Assembly: GCA_017410605.1 (NCBI GenBank)
Contig: JAFQQN010000005.1
Span: 108,741 to 172,740 of the forward strand
Reading direction: 5' to 3'
Source of the DNA: Clostridia bacterium
GTDB lineage: Bacteria > Bacillota > Clostridia > Oscillospirales > Acutalibacteraceae
Length of the DNA: 64,000 bases
Shown here: in pieces, positions 5,144 through 14,538 of the stretch
How the letters are laid out: every line of letters begins with the position of its first letter
Numbering within the stretch: position 1 is the first letter of the stretch
Program-made: the position numbers and the translations under genes
The notes under the pieces: model-generated
What the model saw: only the letters and a program-made list of their open reading frames with translations
Databases searched by the model: none
What the model was told of the DNA's origin: nothing

Positions 5144-5228
5144 TTTGTGGCACCTGCCTTAATTTAAGTCTCGCTAACGCAGGCGGCGAATGAACGCACT
5201 TAAAAAAGCCTACACTAAGCGGCTTAAG
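5144..5228 (-). promoter_or_regulatory. Structured 5' leader of the rplU-prp-rpmA operon (L21-leader-like attenuator)
   Basis: An AAGCC/GGCTT hairpin plus U-run at 5201-5225 (minus strand), placed between the promoter and the rplU start. Firmicutes carry a described L21 leader at this position. Confidence 0.45.
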
Positions 5229-5229
5229 C

Positions 5230-5258
5230 ATTGTACCACTTATAAACACAAAAGTCAA
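5230..5258 (-). promoter_or_regulatory. SigA-type promoter for rplU
   Basis: Minus strand TTGACT, 17 nt spacer, TACAAT. Confidence 0.65.
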
Positions 5259-10599: not shown

Positions 10600-10698
10600 T
10601 TTACGCAGAAAAAAAGGGAATATAAAACGCTGATTACCGAACGATATATTTAATTGAGTTTATCATTACAATCAGCTATTTTTCATCATTTTCTCCTA

Positions 10699-10758
10699 AA
10701 AACAAATTGAACACATCATAACGTAATCCACGTGAATGATGTGTTCAATTTGTTTTTA
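10699..10758 (+). terminator. 20-bp perfect-stem hairpin plus T-run after the beta-helix pair
   Basis: AAACAAATTGAACACATCAT ... ATGATGTGTTCAATTTGTTT, followed by TTTATAGG. Confidence 0.6.
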
Positions 10759-10868
10759 TAGGAATTTAATAAAAGATGATTTCAGGTTGATGCTAAATTT
10801 ATCAAAAACTTGCTTCAAATTTGATAAAACCTCGCTATTTACTTGATAAAATCATGCTTTTTGTTCAA

Positions 10869-10935
10869 TTACTTGCTTGCCTCTTCAACTGCAACTGCAC
10901 AAGCAACAGTCATACCAACCATTGGGTTGTTACCT
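10869..10935 (-). repeat. Remnant copy 2 of the GGGtGRT gene 3' end
   Basis: Encodes ...RGNNPMVGMTVACAVAVEEASK*. 10891-10935 is an exact 45-nt direct repeat of 12850-12894. Confidence 0.9.
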
Positions 10936-11156
10936 CTCACTATAAACAGCCCTTTTTCCTTCTGCATAACATTTTTCTTTCTCATGACTGTTTTTTGCCT
11001 AAAAAACGGTGCTTTTCGGGGGTACTTGTCTTCCGGCGGCTCTATGTGGCTCTATCCGTTGTAGAAAAAATGTTGAAAAGATATTTTTTCTACATTTGAA
11101 AATCGTTATGTAGAAAAAAATCTCTCATATAATTTTTATAAATGTGTCTGTTTATC

Positions 11157-11759
11157 CTATTTCCCTGATAAACAAGACAAGAAACAATACAGATTAGATT
11201 CTTCTTTTTCTCTCCTATTCTTAAAATTCAAATAATATCTATGTGGGTATGGAGAAGATGTTTTAACATCAAAATATACCGAATTAAAATAATCTTCCTT
11301 GACAAGTTCAATTTTATTTAGGGGTATTAGGATTTTTGTGCCAATTAAATCTAAATATAAATTTTTATCACTAATTAAAAGATTTGCAAGAGTAGATAAT
11401 GTGTTTTTCTCAACATTCCAAAATGGACGGGATTCGTTATAACCTACGCTCTTCATACGACAACTGTTTTTCTCTTCAATAACAGTTAGAAATTTAGTAA
11501 CAAATATTGGATACTCGCCCTTTCTCATAATATCATCAAAATCATTTATATCTCTATCAAGCGATATGTTATTATAGTTTTTTTCTTGACACAACTCTAC
11601 AAAAGATTTAACTGCAGTTTTATGCTCTATGTTTCCATTCTCGTATTCTTTGCAAATATTCAATAGTGAATTACTATGCATTAAATATTTCTCGTGGCAT
11701 TCTTGATGTGCTACATCAAAAAATCGCTCTGTTTTTTTGCCACAGTAAATACATTTCAT
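11157..11759 (-). CDS. Hypothetical protein with an N-terminal CxxC...HxxCH zinc-ribbon-like motif
   Basis: 200 aa (MKCIYCGKKTERFFDVAHQECHEKY...), very AT-rich. I recognise no family. Confidence 0.6.
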   Translation of the reverse strand: MKCIYCGKKTERFFDVAHQECHEKYLMHSNSLLNICKEYENGNIEHKTAVKSFVELCQEKNYNNISLDRDINDFDDIMRKGEYPIFVTKFLTVIEEKNSCRMKSVGYNESRPFWNVEKNTLSTLANLLISDKNLYLDLIGTKILIPLNKIELVKEDYFNSVYFDVKTSSPYPHRYYLNFKNRREKEESNLYCFLSCLSGK

Positions 11760-11775
11760 TAAGTTCCACCAACTT

Positions 11776-12174
11776 TTAACTATATTGAAATATCTTTTTG
11801 ATTTTAACGGGTTTATTGCACTTTATAGCATAGTCAATCATTGACTTTGTACCCTTGCTTTTCTCGTCCCAAAAGCAAATAACATAGTCGCTGACCTCTG
11901 CCATTTGTTTATTTCGTTTTGGTCCAGCGCTTCTGCCGTAGGCTTTCCAATCGGCAGGGTATTTTTCAACCTTGAATCCGTTTTCTTCTGCATATCGTTC
12001 CCCGATAGTGTCAGCGCCACTTGCACAACCCGAAACGATAACTATATTGTTTTCTTTTCGGATATTTGATAAGCAATAATCAATATATAATTTTGCCTGT
12101 TCATAATTATTGTAATCTCTGCACCCTGCAATCACAACTCTTTTTGTGGTTAATTCCTTCTTAAACATAAACAC
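11776..12174 (-). CDS. DUF2493-type SLOG-superfamily protein
   Basis: VVIAGCRDY...VSGCASGADTIGERYA...YPADWKAYGRSAGPKRNKQM matches the DUF2493 signature (GGRD, GGxxGAD, PADW..GxxAGPxRN). Confidence 0.8.
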   Translation of the reverse strand: MFMFKKELTTKRVVIAGCRDYNNYEQAKLYIDYCLSNIRKENNIVIVSGCASGADTIGERYAEENGFKVEKYPADWKAYGRSAGPKRNKQMAEVSDYVICFWDEKSKGTKSMIDYAIKCNKPVKIKKIFQYS

Positions 12175-12260
12175 ACCTTTAAAATTTATATGGGGATTAT
12201 ATCCCCTTAATATTTAAGATTATAACCCCCATAATATTTATTGTCAAGGGGGGTACTATA

Positions 12261-12458
12261 ATGATTGTTTTTGATAAATTATGGAAAACTATGAAGCTTA
12301 AAGGTGTTACTACCTATAAATTAAGAGAATCCTGTGGAATTGACAGCAAAACCATAAGACGGCTCAAAGCCAACGAAAATATCGAAACAAAAACCATTGA
12401 TAAATTGTGCTCGGCTTTGGATTGTGATATATGCGACATAATGGAGTATAGAAAATAA
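12261..12458 (+). CDS. Small Xre/Cro-family HTH regulator
   Basis: 65 aa with a TTYKLRESCGIDSKTIRRL HTH. It is divergent from the SLOG gene, with a GGGGGG SD. Confidence 0.8.
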   Translation: MIVFDKLWKTMKLKGVTTYKLRESCGIDSKTIRRLKANENIETKTIDKLCSALDCDICDIMEYRK

Positions 12459-12470
12459 TTGTGTTTAAAT

Positions 12471-12500
12471 AAAGGGCGTTTTTCACCGCCCTTTATTTTT
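12471..12500 (+). terminator. Terminator after the Xre gene
   Basis: AAAGGGCG / CGCCCTTT stem followed by ATTTTTAT. Confidence 0.7.
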
Positions 12501-12532
12501 ATGGGTAGTATTTTCTTGAACATAATTACACC

Positions 12533-12562
12533 CAATAAAAAAGCACACCCCGAGGGGTGTGC
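12533..12562 (-). terminator. Strong terminator on the minus strand
   Basis: GCACACCC / GGGTGTGC stem followed by TTTTTTATT on the minus strand. Confidence 0.65.
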
Positions 12563-12585
12563 CGAAAAAGTGTTCCCTCAGTTTG

Positions 12586-12686
12586 TTGCGACGCAAACTG
12601 ACATTTCACCATACGGAGAAAAGGGTAACACCTTTTACCAAGGTATTATCCGTATGATGAAAAAAATTATTCAGTTCGCGTCGCAA
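12586..12686. ncRNA. Nested three-stem long hairpin, a candidate small RNA or 3'-UTR element
   Basis: P1 12586-12601/12671-12686 (16 bp, with one G-U in the minus-strand sense). P2 12610-12617/12649-12656 (8 bp). P3 12619-12624/12631-12636 (6 bp). Confidence 0.35.
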
Positions 12687-12775
12687 ATAGAGTTTAACAC
12701 ATTCGGTTGTTTTTTGCAAGTATTATACAAAAATTGCTCAGAAAAAGAAAAGCTTATGATATAATATAAATGTCA

Positions 12776-12800
12776 AGGGCTTGGGAAATCCCCAAGCCCT
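12776..12800 (-). terminator. Hairpin just downstream of the GGGtGRT stop
   Basis: AGGGCTTGGG / CCCAAGCCCT 10-bp stem. There is no clean U-tract. Confidence 0.4.
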
Positions 12801-12824
12801 ATATTAATTATCATACATTAAAAA

Positions 12825-13826
12825 TTACTTATTAAGCGCTTCGTGTACAGCAACTGCACAAGCAACAGTCATACCAACCATTGGGTTGTTACCTGCACCG
12901 ATAAGACCCATCATCTCAACATGGGCAGGAACAGAAGAAGAACCTGCAAACTGAGCGTCAGAGTGCATACGGCCCATTGTATCGGTCATACCATAGGAAG
13001 CAGGACCTGCAGCCATATTATCGGGATGGAGAGTACGGCCTGTACCGCCACCGGAAGCAACAGAGAAATATTTCTTGCCCTGTTCAATACATTCCTTTTT
13101 ATAGGTACCTGCAACGGGATGCTGGAAGCGAGTGGGGTTGGTAGAGTTACCGGTGATAGAAACATCAACGCCCTCGTTATGCATAATAGCTACGCCCTCG
13201 CGAACATCGTCGGCACCGTAGCAACGAACCTTTGCGCGTTCACCGTTGGAATAAGCGGTTTCCTTAACAATTTCAAGCTTACCTGTGAAATAGTCAAACT
13301 TAGTCTGAACATAGGTAAAGCCGTTGATTCTGGAAATAATTTGAGCGGCATCCTTACCAAGACCGTTAAGGATAACACGAAGAGGCTCTTTTCTTGCTTT
13401 ATTAGCGCTTCTTGCAAGACCGATAGCACCCTCAGCAGCAGCAAAGGATTCGTGACCGGCAAGGAAAGCAAAGCACTTTGTTTCTTCTCTAAGAAGCATT
13501 GCGCCAAGGTTACCGTGGCCAATACCAACCTTACGGTCGTCGGCAACAGAACCGGGAATACAGAAGGACTGAAGACCAAGGCCAATTTTTTCTGCAGCCT
13601 CTGCAGCAGAAGCAACCTTATCTTTAATTGCGATAGCACAGCCTACAACATAAGCCCAAGCAGCATTTTCAAAGCAGATAGGCTGAATGCCCTTAACAAT
13701 GTTATATGCATCTACACCTGCATTGTCACAGATTTCTTTAGCTTCTTCAATAGAAGCGATACCGTGCTTTGCAAGTTCAGCATTAATTTGATCTATTCTT
13801 CTTTCATAACTTTCAAATAAAGCCAT
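12825..13826 (-). CDS. GGGtGRT-family protein (conserved, function unknown)
   Basis: 333 aa containing the literal SGGGTGRTLHPDN signature. AAGGGAGG SD. Confidence 0.85.
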   Translation of the reverse strand: MALFESYERRIDQINAELAKHGIASIEEAKEICDNAGVDAYNIVKGIQPICFENAAWAYVVGCAIAIKDKVASAAEAAEKIGLGLQSFCIPGSVADDRKVGIGHGNLGAMLLREETKCFAFLAGHESFAAAEGAIGLARSANKARKEPLRVILNGLGKDAAQIISRINGFTYVQTKFDYFTGKLEIVKETAYSNGERAKVRCYGADDVREGVAIMHNEGVDVSITGNSTNPTRFQHPVAGTYKKECIEQGKKYFSVASGGGTGRTLHPDNMAAGPASYGMTDTMGRMHSDAQFAGSSSVPAHVEMMGLIGAGNNPMVGMTVACAVAVHEALNK

Positions 13827-13845
13827 TACGTTACGCCTCCCTTAA

Positions 13846-14538
13846 TTATTCTTCACGGGGGTCGATAAGCTTTGCAGCATCATCAACACGTCCGTACTGG
13901 CCGCTTGCTTTTTCTAAAGCTTCGTTAGCGTCCATACCCTTTTTAATCATATCCATCATTTTGCCAAGATGAACAAACTTATAACCGATAATAGCGCCGT
14001 CAGCATCAACTGCAACCTTGGTGATATAACCCTCAGCAAGTTCAAGATAACGGGGGCCTTTAACCTTTGTAGCATATGTAGTACCGGTCTGTGAACGGAG
14101 ACCCTTACCAAGGTCTTCAAGACCTGCACCAACAGGAAGACCGTCTTCAGAGAAGGCTGTCTGTGTACGACCGTAAACTATCTGTAAGAAAAGCTCTCTC
14201 ATAGCGGTGTTAATAGCGTCGCAAACAAGGTCGGTATTAAGAGCCTCAAGAAGAGTCTTGCCAACAAGAATTTCAGATGCCATAGCGGCAGAGTGGGTCA
14301 TACCTGAGCAACCAATGGTTTCAACCAAGGCCTCTTCAATAACGCCCTCTTTAACATTAAGTGAAAGCTTACAAGCGCCCTGTTGAGGTGCGCACCAGCC
14401 AATACCGTGTGTCAGGCCGGAAATATCTTTAACTTCCTTAACCTGAACCCATTTGCCCTCTTCCGGAATGGGAGCGGGGCCGTGATATGCACCCTTAGCA
14501 AGGGGGCACATTCTTTCTACTTCGCTCGAATACTTCAT
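13846..14538 (-). CDS. NifU-N/IscU-like scaffold-domain protein with a C-terminal extension
   Basis: GWCAPQQGACKLSLNV...ETIGCSGMTHSAAMASEILVGKTLLEA parallels the IscU Cys-containing blocks. AAAGGAG SD. Confidence 0.7.
   Translation of the reverse strand: MKYSSEVERMCPLAKGAYHGPAPIPEEGKWVQVKEVKDISGLTHGIGWCAPQQGACKLSLNVKEGVIEEALVETIGCSGMTHSAAMASEILVGKTLLEALNTDLVCDAINTAMRELFLQIVYGRTQTAFSEDGLPVGAGLEDLGKGLRSQTGTTYATKVKGPRYLELAEGYITKVAVDADGAIIGYKFVHLGKMMDMIKKGMDANEALEKASGQYGRVDDAAKLIDPREE

What the first reader, a model, noticed from the sequence alone, without database searches (positions are those of the whole stretch)
11157..12458. Compact cassette of a Zn-ribbon protein, a DUF2493/SLOG protein and a divergent Xre regulator, a candidate conflict (defence or toxin-antitoxin-like) module
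Island B contains only three small genes. A 200-aa protein has an N-terminal CxxC...HxxCH motif and an unknown C-terminal domain. Directly upstream in the same operon is a DUF2493 SLOG-fold protein. Divergent from both is a 65-aa Xre HTH.

SLOG domains are predicted nucleotide or nucleotide-derived-ligand binders, and they recur in phage and plasmid conflict systems.

The 86-bp divergent control region is densely structured. It has GGGGAT-TAT-ATCCCC (12192-12206), two TAATATTTA direct repeats (12208-12216 and 12232-12240), and ACCCCC/GGGGGT, which can sequester the Xre SD.

The location in an att-flanked, AT-rich islet fits a horizontally acquired accessory system. I know of no described function for this trio.
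Basis: partly seen in the sequence, partly recalled or inferred. Interest (0 to 1): 0.65.

Follow-up and report, generated by a model that had tools for sequence, protein, structure and literature searches.

The report
Decayed mobile islet carrying a SLOG gene
The three genes are real, but they are leftover, separately exchangeable cargo of a broken-down mobile element rather than one dedicated three-gene defence system; the constant piece is a tightly switched SLOG (DUF2493) gene of unknown function that is also common in phages.

Summary
The trio is not a conserved unit.

The islet (about 10869-12894) lies between two copies of the 3' end of a GGGtGRT gene. It has no integrase or relaxase, so it resembles a decayed integrative element (CIME-like).

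**YAcAr/DUF2493 SLOG gene.** This is the only constant part. Close homologues form hundreds of clusters in Clostridia, and in the sampled contexts they were mostly solitary. Related proteins occur in 1,072 of 50,697 phage records.

**Two alternative control modules.** One is a divergent HTH_26 Xre with a perfect sigma-70 promoter and conserved operators. The other is an undescribed ~150-nt structured leader with a terminator and strong covariation. The window carries both in series, with a 28-nt pseudo-start of YAcAr between them.

**The 200-aa protein.** It has a Zn knuckle, a helical linker and a PH-like domain, with no enzymatic fold. Its family is rare (about 30 clusters at 50% identity). 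It also occurs without YAcAr: next to GmrSD, next to phage portal genes, or with another Xre.

**Missing genes.** Fuller relatives add a GIY-YIG nuclease and a 316-aa protein with a PtuA-like N-terminus. Both are absent here.

Function remains inferred. Interest is modest.

The parts
10869..10935 (-). Displaced second copy of the GGGtGRT 3' end with its own stop codon (reads ...GMTVACAVAVEEASK*). This is the far att-like repeat.
   Evidence: 57-nt direct repeat 10879-10935 / 12838-12894, 91% identical. The reading frame was read. The same C-terminus is the one seen at the start of locus L033.
10936..11156 (-). Conserved non-coding end of the element, including the 12-nt inverted repeat TGTAGAAAAAAT...ATTTTTTCTACA at about 11060-11097.
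   Evidence: 81-87% identical to the region between the last gene and the GGGtGRT fragment in L001, L008, L013 and L027.
11157..11759 (-). 200-aa protein: N-terminal Zn knuckle, helical linker and C-terminal PH-like domain ('ZnR-PH'). No enzymatic fold was detected.
   Evidence: ORF. AlphaFold2 model with pLDDT 84. The top Foldseek PDB hits are PH, PTB and other PH-like domains. No hit in Pfam, PHROGs, NCBIfam or PADLOC. Family alignments A1 and A2.
11776..12174 (-). YAcAr/DUF2493 SLOG protein. The likely true start is the ATG at 12168.
   Evidence: Pfam PF10686, E=1.7e-14. phrog_289, E=2e-34. AlphaFold2 model with pLDDT 89. Nearest solved folds are ShosA, DprA and the ThsA SLOG domain.
12192..12206 (.). 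Perfect palindrome GGGGATTATATCCCC, the core of the promoter-distal operator copy, just downstream of the predicted YAcAr transcription start.
   Evidence: Occurs once in the window against 0.01 expected. Invariant in L013, L024 and L030.
12219..12247 (-). Perfect sigma-70-type promoter (TTGACA, 17-nt spacer, TATAAT) driving YAcAr and ZnR-PH. It overlaps the second operator copy. The imperfect 18-19-nt direct repeat is GATTATATCCCCTTAATA (12195-12212) and GATTATAACCCCCATAATA (12218-12236).
   Evidence: The only 12/12 match in 10800-12900. Both hexamers are invariant in four loci.
12207..12235 (+). Candidate Xre promoter (TTAATA, 17-nt spacer, CATAAT), interleaved with the operators.
   Evidence: 9/12 consensus match. 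This is weak, consensus-only evidence.
12261..12458 (+). 65-aa HTH_26 (Xre/Cro-type) regulator, the predicted repressor of the divergent promoter.
   Evidence: Pfam HTH_26, E=4.5e-15. 79% identical to the regulator divergent from a solitary YAcAr in L024.
12496..12523 (-). Pseudo-5' end of a YAcAr gene (ATGTTCAAGAAAATACTACCCATAAAAA), left between the leader and the Xre cassette.
   Evidence: Window 12496-12645 aligns to the leader plus the first codons of YAcAr in L001, L008, L022 and L027. Sequence read.
12537..12688 (-). Structured leader RNA: a long three-part hairpin with a GGUAA apical loop, followed by an intrinsic terminator at 12542-12563. Its weak promoter (TTGCAA, 17-nt spacer, TAAACT) lies at 12719-12691. 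In this window the leader is orphaned from its gene.
   Evidence: Covariance-model hit at 123 bits, E=5e-29. Fold z-score -10. Terminator found. Covariation.
12825..12894 (-). 3' end of the intact GGGtGRT gene (12825-13826). This is the near att-like repeat (12838-12894).
   Evidence: Pfam GGGtGRT, E=3e-195. Repeat.

Best explanation
**Shown.** The trio is the surviving cargo of a roughly 2-kb decayed integrative element. The element sits between duplicated 3' ends of the GGGtGRT gene and has no recombinase or transfer genes of its own, so it is CIME-like.

Its core is the YAcAr/DUF2493 SLOG gene. In Clostridia this gene travels as a small cassette under one of two interchangeable control modules:
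- a ~150-nt structured leader ending in a terminator, or
- a divergent HTH_26 Xre with a perfect consensus promoter and two conserved operator repeats.

In this window an Xre-type cassette has been recombined in between a leader and the gene. This left a 28-nt pseudo-start, and the two modules now lie in series.

The 200-aa Zn-knuckle/PH-like protein is a facultative passenger, co-transcribed 16 nt downstream of YAcAr. The GIY-YIG nuclease and the 316-aa protein that follow it in fuller relatives have been lost here.

**Inferred.**
- Xre binds the two repeats that overlap the -10 box and the transcription start. This keeps the very strong promoter off.
- Loss or absence of Xre, for example on arrival in a naive cell, would give a burst of YAcAr and ZnR-PH.
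- YAcAr binds or processes a nucleotide-derived ligand or ssDNA for the benefit of the mobile element (establishment or counter-defence).
- ZnR-PH is a non-enzymatic adaptor or binder.
For: **Islet and its relatives.**
- L027 is collinear with the window from the GGGtGRT gene through the leader, YAcAr and ZnR-PH, and ends in the same repeat. It lacks Xre and carries GIY-YIG.
- Larger relatives (L001, L008) place the same cassette after a protein with a C-terminal HTH, a protein with MobV-like motifs and ArdA.
- L013 shows a tandem arrangement: the att fragment is followed by Xre. This fits the accretion-and-decay route described for CIMEs (PMC5704250).

**YAcAr is the constant part.**
- 886 clusters reach E<=1e-20, and the best 120 are all at least 76% identical.
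- YAcAr is solitary or accompanied only by a divergent HTH regulator in L024, L025 and L030-L034.

**Control modules.**
- The promoter is a 12/12 match.
- The operator region is invariant in four loci.
- The pseudo-start is seen.
- Leader covariation: 94% of cells are paired, against 41-50% in the slid controls. 33 of 47 pairs carry compensatory changes. None of 500 shuffles reached the observed values.

**ZnR-PH is separable.**
- Its contexts lack YAcAr.
- The fold is PH-like.

**A role on the mobile-element side.**
- 1,072 of 50,697 phage records carry a homologue of YAcAr, against 41 of 72,556 plasmid records.
- Published predictions assign phage SLOG domains a role in countering ADPr-derived immune signals (PMC9503650).
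Against: - No experiment bears on any of the functions proposed here.
- No integrase for this att site was found in any fetched relative, so 'integrative element' rests on the repeats and on collinearity.
- The 'Mob' and 'Rep' labels for the larger relatives rest on motifs and a C-terminal HTH only. Neither protein has a Pfam hit.
- Solitary YAcAr genes in otherwise ordinary chromosomal neighbourhoods (L031-L034) could mean the gene has been domesticated.
- Among close homologues of the 200-aa protein, YAcAr lies directly upstream in every context except L007. A functional partnership within that clade is therefore not excluded.
- The nearest solved folds, ShosA and DprA, are DNA binders, and ShosA is a defence antitoxin. 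The fold therefore does not discriminate between defence and counter-defence.
Confidence: 0.6

Rival explanations
1. One reading: a dedicated defence or toxin-antitoxin-like module. YAcAr would act as a SLOG/DprA-like antitoxin or sensor, as ShosA and PsyrA do. ZnR-PH would be the toxin or effector, and Xre the transcriptional gate.
For: - The PADLOC ShosA model hits YAcAr at E=7e-8.
- ShosA is the top structural neighbour of YAcAr, and ShosA is the antitoxin of an anti-phage TA system (PMC11961720).
- The genes are tightly packed and their promoter is strongly repressed.
- Fuller relatives add a GIY-YIG nuclease (weak UzuA hit) and a protein whose N-terminus matches a PtuA model at E=3e-20.
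- One distant ZnR-PH homologue lies between a GmrSD enzyme and an HD protein.
Against: - ZnR-PH has no enzymatic or pore-forming fold.
- It occurs without YAcAr in at least five distinct contexts.
- YAcAr is far more widespread than ZnR-PH and was mostly solitary in the sampled contexts.
- The ShosA match covers only residues 64-125.
- No ShosT-like PRTase or RecQ-like partner is present.
- The nuclease genes are absent from this window.
Confidence: 0.15
2. YAcAr has been domesticated as a host gene for nucleotide metabolism or signalling. The Xre or the leader would simply tune its expression. ZnR-PH would be an unrelated hitch-hiker, and no genetic conflict would be involved.
For: - YAcAr is solitary between housekeeping genes in L031-L034.
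- Sequence conservation is very high across many clusters.
- The LOG-type relatives within the SLOG superfamily are metabolic N-glycosidases (PMC9503650).
Against: - The gene sits between att-like repeats in an AT-rich islet.
- Its position differs between genomes, and remnants stack in tandem.
- The family is abundant in phage records.
- The same leader also precedes unrelated cargo genes: DUF1413 in L003, and a lipoprotein in contigs from the viral collection.
Confidence: 0.1
3. The islet is inert debris. The genes are decaying and no longer do anything.
For: - The pseudo-start, the orphaned leader, and the loss of GIY-YIG and the 316-aa gene relative to L001 and L027.
- Truncated copies exist elsewhere: a 51-aa ZnR fragment in L022/L023 and a truncated YAcAr in L013.
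Against: - All three ORFs are intact.
- Both hexamers of the perfect promoter and the palindromic operator are preserved base for base with three other loci.
- The family's invariant residues are retained in both proteins.
Confidence: 0.1

Closest known systems
Stand-alone DUF2493/YAcAr SLOG proteins of phages (Pfam PF10686, PHROG 289 'GTP-binding domain')
   Same: - Same domain, size (about 120-135 aa) and single-domain architecture.
- 43-51% identity to proteins of Streptococcus, Bacillus, Cellulophaga and Vibrio phages.
- The invariant IAGxR, SGxAxGxD, AGxxRN and FW..S.G motifs are shared with the three phage and plasmid homologues included in alignment A9.
   Different: - Here the gene lies in a chromosomal, att-flanked islet under an Xre switch.
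- In the phage and plasmid examples inspected it sits among small genes that are mostly unannotated.
- No member has a tested function.
ShosA of the ShosTA type IV toxin-antitoxin defence system, and DprA
   Same: - These are the nearest solved folds: 8zva at E=1e-4, and 3uqz and 4ljk.
- All are Rossmann-like SLOG/DprA cores.
- ShosA binds DNA and counteracts a toxin (PMC11961720).
   Different: - YAcAr is less than half the length (132 aa against about 300) and only 18-22% identical.
- No ShosT phosphoribosyltransferase gene is adjacent.
- YAcAr scores 18.8 bits on the NCBIfam DprA model, whose cut-off is 191.
SLOG domain of ThsA (Thoeris), a sensor of cyclic ADP-ribose isomers
   Same: Fold-level similarity (7uxs and 6lhx, E about 1e-3). 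ThsA SLOG is the precedent for a SLOG domain that binds a nucleotide-derived immune signal.
   Different: No SIR2 or transmembrane effector is fused to YAcAr, and the islet contains no TIR (ThsB) gene.
CIMEs (cis-mobilizable elements) and tandem accretion of ICE/IME remnants at the 3' end of a target gene, as in the ICESt1-related elements of Streptococcus thermophilus
   Same: - Flanked by attL/attR-like repeats that include the 3' end of the target gene.
- Integration and transfer genes have been lost.
- Relatives are stacked in tandem (L013) or carry mobilization-type genes (L001, L008).
- This matches the published definition (PMC5704250).
   Different: - The target is a GGGtGRT gene in Clostridia.
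- The cognate integrase was not identified.
- Excision and cis-mobilization are untested.
Repressor-operator switches of temperate phages and ICEs (Xre/CI-type repressor divergent from the genes it controls)
   Same: - A small HTH_26 protein is transcribed divergently from a strong promoter.
- The -10 box and the transcription start of that promoter are covered by repeated operator sequences.
   Different: - This switch controls one or two cargo genes rather than a lytic or transfer programme.
- No anti-repressor or protease partner is visible.
Transcription-attenuating leaders, and type III toxin-antitoxin layouts (RNA, then terminator, then gene)
   Same: - The order is promoter, structured RNA, intrinsic terminator, ribosome-binding site and gene.
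- The structure is supported by compensatory changes.
   Different: - No Rfam family matches.
- There are no internal tandem repeats of the type III kind.
- The downstream genes are unrelated to each other (YAcAr, DUF1413, a lipoprotein), so a metabolite riboswitch tied to one pathway is unlikely.

Membership tests
SLOG superfamily, YAcAr family (PF10686 / DUF2493) | Match to the family profile above the curated threshold | tested here: met
   53.8 bits against a cut-off of 28.2, E=1.7e-14. phrog_289, E=2e-34.
SLOG superfamily, YAcAr family (PF10686 / DUF2493) | Rossmann-like three-layer alpha/beta fold with a glycine-rich loop after an early strand | tested here: met
   AlphaFold2 model with pLDDT 89 and alternating strands and helices. 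The top fold matches are SLOG members ShosA, DprA and ThsA. SGxAxGxD is invariant.
SLOG superfamily, YAcAr family (PF10686 / DUF2493) | Binding or processing of a nucleotide-derived ligand | not testable with these tools
   This is only predicted in the literature (PMC9503650).
ShosTA (Shosta) defence system | An adjacent ShosT toxin (phosphoribosyltransferase plus pyrophosphatase) | tested here: not met
   The neighbour is the ZnR-PH protein, which has a PH-like fold and no PRTase match.
ShosTA (Shosta) defence system | A full-length ShosA-type protein (about 300 aa) | tested here: not met
   The PADLOC ShosA hit scores 30 bits and its best stretch covers only residues 64-125 of a 132-aa protein.
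PsyrTA (RqlHI) defence system | A RecQ-like helicase toxin next to the DprA-like protein | tested here: not met
   The islet has no helicase ORF. The PsyrA hit has E=0.049.
Thoeris | A TIR-domain ThsB, and a SLOG domain fused to a SIR2 or transmembrane effector | tested here: not met
   None of the three proteins has a TIR, SIR2 or transmembrane domain. The rest of the window was not surveyed for Thoeris.
Type II toxin-antitoxin pair with an Xre-type antitoxin | An Xre gene co-transcribed with, and always accompanying, its toxin gene | tested here: not met
   Xre is divergent rather than co-transcribed. It recurs with YAcAr alone (L024, L030). It is absent where YAcAr and ZnR-PH occur together in L001, L008 and L027.
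CIME (cis-mobilizable element) | [quoted passage not shown] | tested here: met
   57-nt repeat, 91% identical, derived from the GGGtGRT 3' end. The same arrangement is seen in L027.
CIME (cis-mobilizable element) | No integration or transfer genes inside the element | tested here: met
   Only three ORFs of at least 60 aa are not nested in these genes, and none is a recombinase or relaxase.
CIME (cis-mobilizable element) | Derived from, and mobilizable by, a related ICE or IME integrating at the same site | tested here: inconclusive
   Larger relatives carry ArdA, a protein with MobV-like motifs and a protein with a C-terminal HTH. L013 shows tandem accretion. No integrase specific for this site was found, and mobilization cannot be tested here.
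PH-like (pleckstrin-homology) fold / bacterial PH domains | A seven-stranded beta-sandwich capped by a C-terminal helix | tested here: met
   The model has strands from E84 to E178 and then helices 182-198. The top Foldseek hits are PH, PTB and other PH-like domains, with probability 1.0 and E about 6e-4. TM-scores are low (0.3-0.4) because only the C-terminal half aligns.
PH-like (pleckstrin-homology) fold / bacterial PH domains | Sequence membership in a curated bPH or GRAM family | tested here: not met
   No Pfam hit at E<=0.1 other than a sub-threshold Rhodanese_C match to the Zn knuckle.
Riboswitch or transcription-attenuator leader (for 12537-12688) | A conserved secondary structure supported by compensatory changes | tested here: met
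   12 distinct copies. 94% of cells are paired against 41-50% in the slid controls. 33 of 47 pairs carry changes on both sides. The alignment was fitted to the model, which favours the structure.
Riboswitch or transcription-attenuator leader (for 12537-12688) | An expression platform (intrinsic terminator) directly before the ribosome-binding site of the regulated gene | tested here: met
   The terminator is followed by an SD and an ATG in L001, L022, L027 and L031-L034. In the window the terminator lies at 12542-12563, but the gene behind it is only a 28-nt stub.
Riboswitch or transcription-attenuator leader (for 12537-12688) | A ligand or other trigger, and a functionally coherent set of regulated genes | tested here: not met
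   The downstream genes are YAcAr, DUF1413 and a lipoprotein. A ligand cannot be tested with these tools.

The most novel reading that the evidence does not exclude
In their fuller form, YAcAr, ZnR-PH, the GIY-YIG nuclease and the 316-aa protein with a PtuA-like N-terminus make up an undescribed SLOG-based conflict cassette. It would be carried by small integrative elements of gut Clostridia. The PH-like protein would couple a nucleotide-sensing SLOG domain to the nuclease effectors. The cassette would be gated by a new class of structured leader RNA, or alternatively by an Xre switch. On this reading the window holds a nuclease-less remnant.
Probability: 0.2. Interest if true: 0.65.

Novelty: new member of a known kind. 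Interest (0 to 1): 0.35.

Why it matters
The result turns an apparent new three-gene system into something more ordinary: a cassette mosaic at an integration hotspot. This is worth knowing before anyone clones the trio for phage assays.

Three things remain useful.

1. **A genetic handle on DUF2493/YAcAr.** This domain is one of the more common phage and mobile-element domains with no tested function. Here its expression switch is simple and well defined: a perfect promoter, two operators and a 65-aa repressor.
2. **A structured leader RNA.** It is about 150 nt, shows strong covariation, and has no Rfam match. It recurs in front of unrelated mobile-element cargo genes in Clostridia.
3. **A rare protein family.** The Zn-knuckle/PH-like proteins have invariant polar residues (K97, N98, T167, S169, and H173 nearly so). 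This suggests a defined binding site.

Tried and rejected
- **The 200-aa protein in curated libraries.** PADLOC, PHROGs, NCBIfam and Pfam gave no hit.
- **The 200-aa protein in phage and plasmid records.** tblastn found nothing. A motif scan of the viral contig collection found nothing.
- **The search for related loci with the diverse alignment A2.** It failed because no stretch was conserved enough. I replaced it with a degenerate DNA pattern for FDVKT[ST][ST]P[YF]PHR, which returned 9 metagenome loci.
- **Rfam on the leader region and on six relatives.** Only chance-level hits.
- **Search for the leader in phage and plasmid records.** No match. An 18-nt exact scan of viral contigs returned two hits that lie in sequence without the leader's other features, apparently coding. 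A gapped pattern found one genuine additional context.
- **MAFFT alignments of the leaders (A3, A4).** They misaligned the variable stems. I therefore built a covariance model from L022 and L023 and used it to realign all copies.
- **Leader as a single-strand origin or oriT.** I rejected this in favour of RNA for three reasons. A promoter precedes it, and a terminator and ribosome-binding site follow it. Many pairs are G-U, which would be A-C mismatches on the other strand. It also occurs in loci with no rep or mob gene.
- **Leader as a type III antitoxin RNA.** Rejected because it has no internal tandem repeats and its downstream genes are unrelated to one another.
- **SD sequestration by ACCCCC/GGGGGT.** Neither supported nor excluded. 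The predicted Xre promoter would start transcription downstream of ACCCCC.
- **Phage and plasmid neighbourhoods of DUF2493.** Uninformative: the neighbouring genes are mostly small and unannotated.
- **PDB sequence searches for the putative Mob and Rep proteins.** Nothing useful.
Full report
**Observation**

All three ORFs are present at the stated coordinates:
- a 200-aa ORF at 11157-11759(-)
- a 132-aa ORF at 11776-12174(-), 16 nt upstream of the first on the same strand
- a divergent 65-aa ORF at 12261-12458(+)

Pfam places the 132-aa protein in YAcAr/DUF2493 (53.8 bits against a cut-off of 28.2). It places the 65-aa protein in HTH_26. It finds nothing for the 200-aa protein.

The palindrome, the TAATATTTA pair and the C-run/G-run are in the sequence as described. 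The palindrome occurs once in the window against 0.01 expected. The 9-mer pair is not significant on its own, with 5 copies against 2.9 expected.

The islet has 29-34% GC, against 40-47% in the flanks. A 57-nt direct repeat, 91% identical, bounds it at 10879-10935 and 12838-12894. The repeat is the 3' end of the GGGtGRT gene at 12825-13826. The far copy keeps its own stop codon and reads ...VAVEEASK*. Locus L033 begins with a GGGtGRT 3' end that has this same C-terminus.

**The islet is a decayed integrative element with exchangeable cassettes**

No ORF in the islet resembles a recombinase or a relaxase.

L027 is collinear with the window from the GGGtGRT gene through about 330 bp of non-coding DNA, YAcAr and the 200-aa gene. 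It ends in the same conserved terminal segment and a second GGGtGRT fragment. Unlike the window, it lacks Xre and carries an extra 154-aa GIY-YIG gene.

L008, a roe-deer colon Oscillospiraceae MAG, matches window 10869-12178 at 86% over 1.3 kb. Upstream it has a 466-aa protein with a C-terminal HTH, an 88-aa protein, a 470-aa protein and ArdA.

L001 and L004-L006 have the order: 432-aa HTH protein, leader, YAcAr, 200-aa protein, GIY-YIG, 316-aa protein, GGGtGRT fragment.

The 470-aa protein has HxxR and HxxE...HxH motifs reminiscent of MobV relaxases. That reading comes from my own knowledge of the motifs. No Pfam, NCBIfam or PDB hit supports it.

In L013 the GGGtGRT fragment is followed by a terminator, an Xre gene, the conserved control region and a truncated YAcAr. 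This is a tandem of two elements.

The overall pattern is att-flanked, lacks recombination genes, and has relatives that are larger or stacked. That is the published description of a CIME arising by decay and accretion (PMC5704250). I did not find the integrase that serves this site.

**YAcAr is the constant; the other two genes are facultative**

The 200-aa protein has only 9 clusters at 90% identity among 5.8 billion. A profile search of 1.84 billion cluster representatives found about 30.

YAcAr has 886 clusters at E<=1e-20, and the best 120 are all 76-92% identical to the window's copy. Sampling these gave the following contexts:
- GGGtGRT, then HTH_26 Xre, then YAcAr, then housekeeping genes (L024)
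- GGGtGRT, then an HTH_3-type regulator, then YAcAr (L025)
- HTH_26 Xre, then YAcAr (L030)
- solitary YAcAr behind a long non-coding leader (L031, L032, L033/L034)
- leader, YAcAr, then a 51-aa stump of the 200-aa gene (L022/L023)
- the full arrangement described above for L027

Conversely, more distant members of the 200-aa family (25-32% identical) lie in other settings:
- next to phage portal, protease and capsid genes (L010, L014)
- between a GmrSD enzyme plus a 78-aa acidic protein and an HD-domain protein (L011, L012, L016-L018)
- divergent from a different HTH_26 regulator, in an element with a relaxase carrying the HxDE..PHxH motif and a tyrosine integrase (L015)

A closer homologue (70% identical) lies directly after an integrase fragment in L007.

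The two genes do co-occur outside this genome, but only in a small clade, and each is found far more often or in more varied company without the other.

**What the proteins are**

*The 200-aa protein.* The AlphaFold2 model has pLDDT 84. It shows a small N-terminal Zn knuckle, three helices, and a C-terminal beta-sandwich closed by helices. Foldseek against the PDB returns PH, PTB and other PH-like domains at the top (probability 1.0, E about 6e-4). The viral structure library adds only unnamed proteins and one 'bacterial PH domain protein'. Across 19 diverse members the invariant residues are C3, C6, C21, K97, N98, M102, P112, W114, T167 and S169; H173 is nearly invariant. I read this as a Zn site plus a conserved polar patch on the PH-like domain. 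That makes it a binder or adaptor rather than an enzyme, and this reading is an inference.

*YAcAr.* The model has pLDDT 89 and is a compact Rossmann-like fold. Its nearest solved structures are ShosA (8zva), DprA (3uqz, 4ljk) and the ThsA SLOG domain bound to 3'cADPR (7uxs). All are 18-22% identical. The fold alone cannot say whether YAcAr binds DNA or a nucleotide signal.

Homologues of YAcAr occur in 1,072 of 50,697 phage records, among them Mycobacterium, Vibrio, Escherichia, Klebsiella and Bacillus phages. They occur in only 41 of 72,556 plasmid records. Published comparative analyses predict that viral SLOG domains sense or degrade ADPr-derived immune signals (PMC9503650; PMC7824862). 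ShosA is a DNA-binding antitoxin (PMC11961720).

**The control region**

The only 12/12 sigma-70-type match in 10800-12900 is on the minus strand: TTGACA (12247-12242), a 17-nt spacer, then TATAAT (12224-12219). It points at YAcAr.

Alignment with L013, L024 and L030 shows invariant CCCCCTTGACA, TTATAATC and ATTAAGGGGATATAATCCCCATA. The L024 Xre protein is only 79% identical to the window's.

One copy covers the -10 box. The other, which contains the palindrome, covers the predicted transcription start.

This is the classic layout of a repressor that shuts a strong promoter. It is inferred here, not shown. A 9/12 candidate promoter for xre is interleaved with the operators.

**A second control module and a fossil junction**

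Upstream of YAcAr in L001, L008, L022, L027 and L031-L034 there is no Xre. Instead the order is:
- a promoter (TTGCAA, 17-nt spacer, extended -10 TGnTATTAT)
- a hairpin of about 110 nt in three segments, with an apical GGUAA loop
- a short conserved linker
- an intrinsic terminator
- the ribosome-binding site and start codon

The window has this element at 12537-12688(-). Its terminator is at 12542-12563. It is followed by only 28 nt of a YAcAr reading frame (12523-12496), then the Xre terminator and the Xre cassette. The Xre-type module has therefore been recombined between a leader and the gene.

Six variants fold into the same architecture, with z-scores from -6 to -10.

I built a covariance model from L022 and L023. 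It recovers 12 distinct copies. On the model-fitted alignment:
- 94% of cells pair, against 41-50% when partners are slid by 1-3 columns
- 33 of 47 pairs carry changes on both sides
- the covariation score is 0.50, against 0.05-0.07 in the slid controls
- none of 500 shuffles reaches the observed values

The alignment was fitted to the model, which favours the structure. However, the outer helix exists as at least five unrelated sequences:
- TTGCGACGCAAAC
- ACCACATCACA
- TGCTACACTAA
- TTACCACACAAACTT
- GCCACACAATCT

Rfam has no match.

The same leader also precedes a DUF1413 gene in L003 and a lipoprotein gene in two contigs from the viral collection. It is therefore a general leader for mobile-element cargo genes rather than a YAcAr-specific riboswitch.

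Tandem leaders with pseudo-starts in L032 and L034, and a chimeric broken copy in L033, show repeated recombination at this point.

**Mechanism and verdict**

The best-supported picture has three parts:
- a CIME-like remnant whose YAcAr-ZnR-PH operon is held off by Xre at a very strong promoter
- YAcAr acting on a nucleotide-derived ligand or on ssDNA, for the benefit of the mobile element
- ZnR-PH as a facultative, non-enzymatic partner or passenger

The structural and evolutionary parts are shown. The biochemical parts are inferred.

The TA-like or defence reading keeps some probability. ShosA-like folds do serve as antitoxins. Fuller relatives add a GIY-YIG nuclease and a 316-aa protein whose N-terminus matches a PtuA model at E=3e-20. 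Neither of those genes is in this window.

As a finding it is a new member of known kinds: a decayed integrative element, a DUF2493 gene and an Xre switch. Its interest is modest. The undescribed leader RNA is the most novel item nearby.

Noticed in passing
window 12537-12688 (-), promoter 12719-12691; also L001 4391-4556, L022 4834-4986, L027 4837-4985, L031 3831-3985, L032 3559-3717 and 3825-3985, L034 2-159 and 196-347, L003 4272-4105 (-), L035/L036: An undescribed structured leader RNA of about 150 nt: a three-part hairpin with a GGUAA loop, followed by an intrinsic terminator. Covariation is strong, with 33 of 47 pairs compensated. There is no Rfam match. It precedes YAcAr, DUF1413 and lipoprotein genes on mobile elements of Clostridia.
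   Followed up: partly
L032 3532-4011; L034 1-373; L033 207-418: Two leaders lie in tandem, the first followed by a stub of a start codon region (L032, L034). L033 has a chimeric leader whose 5' and 3' halves of the outer helix come from different variants and cannot pair. Recombination seems to recur between the leader and the gene start, as in the window.
   Followed up: partly
window 11137-11157 versus L027 6011-6498 and L001 5604-6068: The 154-aa GIY-YIG gene is present or absent as a gene-sized unit between the 200-aa gene and the element end. The pattern resembles that of free-standing homing endonuclease genes. It has a weak PADLOC UzuA hit at E=9.5e-5.
   Followed up: no
L001 6092-7042: The N-terminal 159 residues of the 316-aa protein match the first 158 positions of a PADLOC PtuA (Septu) model at E=3e-20. 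They contain no Walker A motif. The C-terminus looks like a restriction endonuclease (weak RE_TdeIII hit). L007 carries an internally deleted 95-aa version.
   Followed up: no
P0017, P0022, P0023, P0024 (alignment A2, columns about 345-450): Some members of the Zn-knuckle/PH-like family carry a conserved C-terminal extension of about 100 aa (H[KR]WT.EE..LCC ... SL[KR]MK.QNIK ... N[TS]L). I did not identify this domain.
   Followed up: no
L012 2292-5873 (also L011, L016-L018): Here a ZnR-PH homologue sits in a conserved row: a GmrSD type IV restriction enzyme, a 78-aa highly acidic protein, ZnR-PH, then an HD-domain (YfbR-like) protein. This is a defence-island-like neighbourhood without any SLOG gene.
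   Followed up: partly
window 10678-10777: A 42-nt inverted repeat, 81% complementary with a 16-nt spacer, lies just outside the islet. Part of it (10704-10757) is similar to L022 4173-4225, which lies on the other side of a YAcAr cassette. It may be the remnant of a neighbouring element.
   Followed up: no
L024, L025, L027 and window 12825-14538: The operon of a NifU-like 230-aa gene and the GGGtGRT gene is a recurrent insertion target in different Clostridia. YAcAr cassettes sit immediately after its stop codon in several genomes.
   Followed up: partly
window 5157-5234 (-): Ribosomal protein L21 leader (Rfam RF00559, 39.1 bits against a gathering score of 36). An ordinary housekeeping feature.
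   Followed up: no
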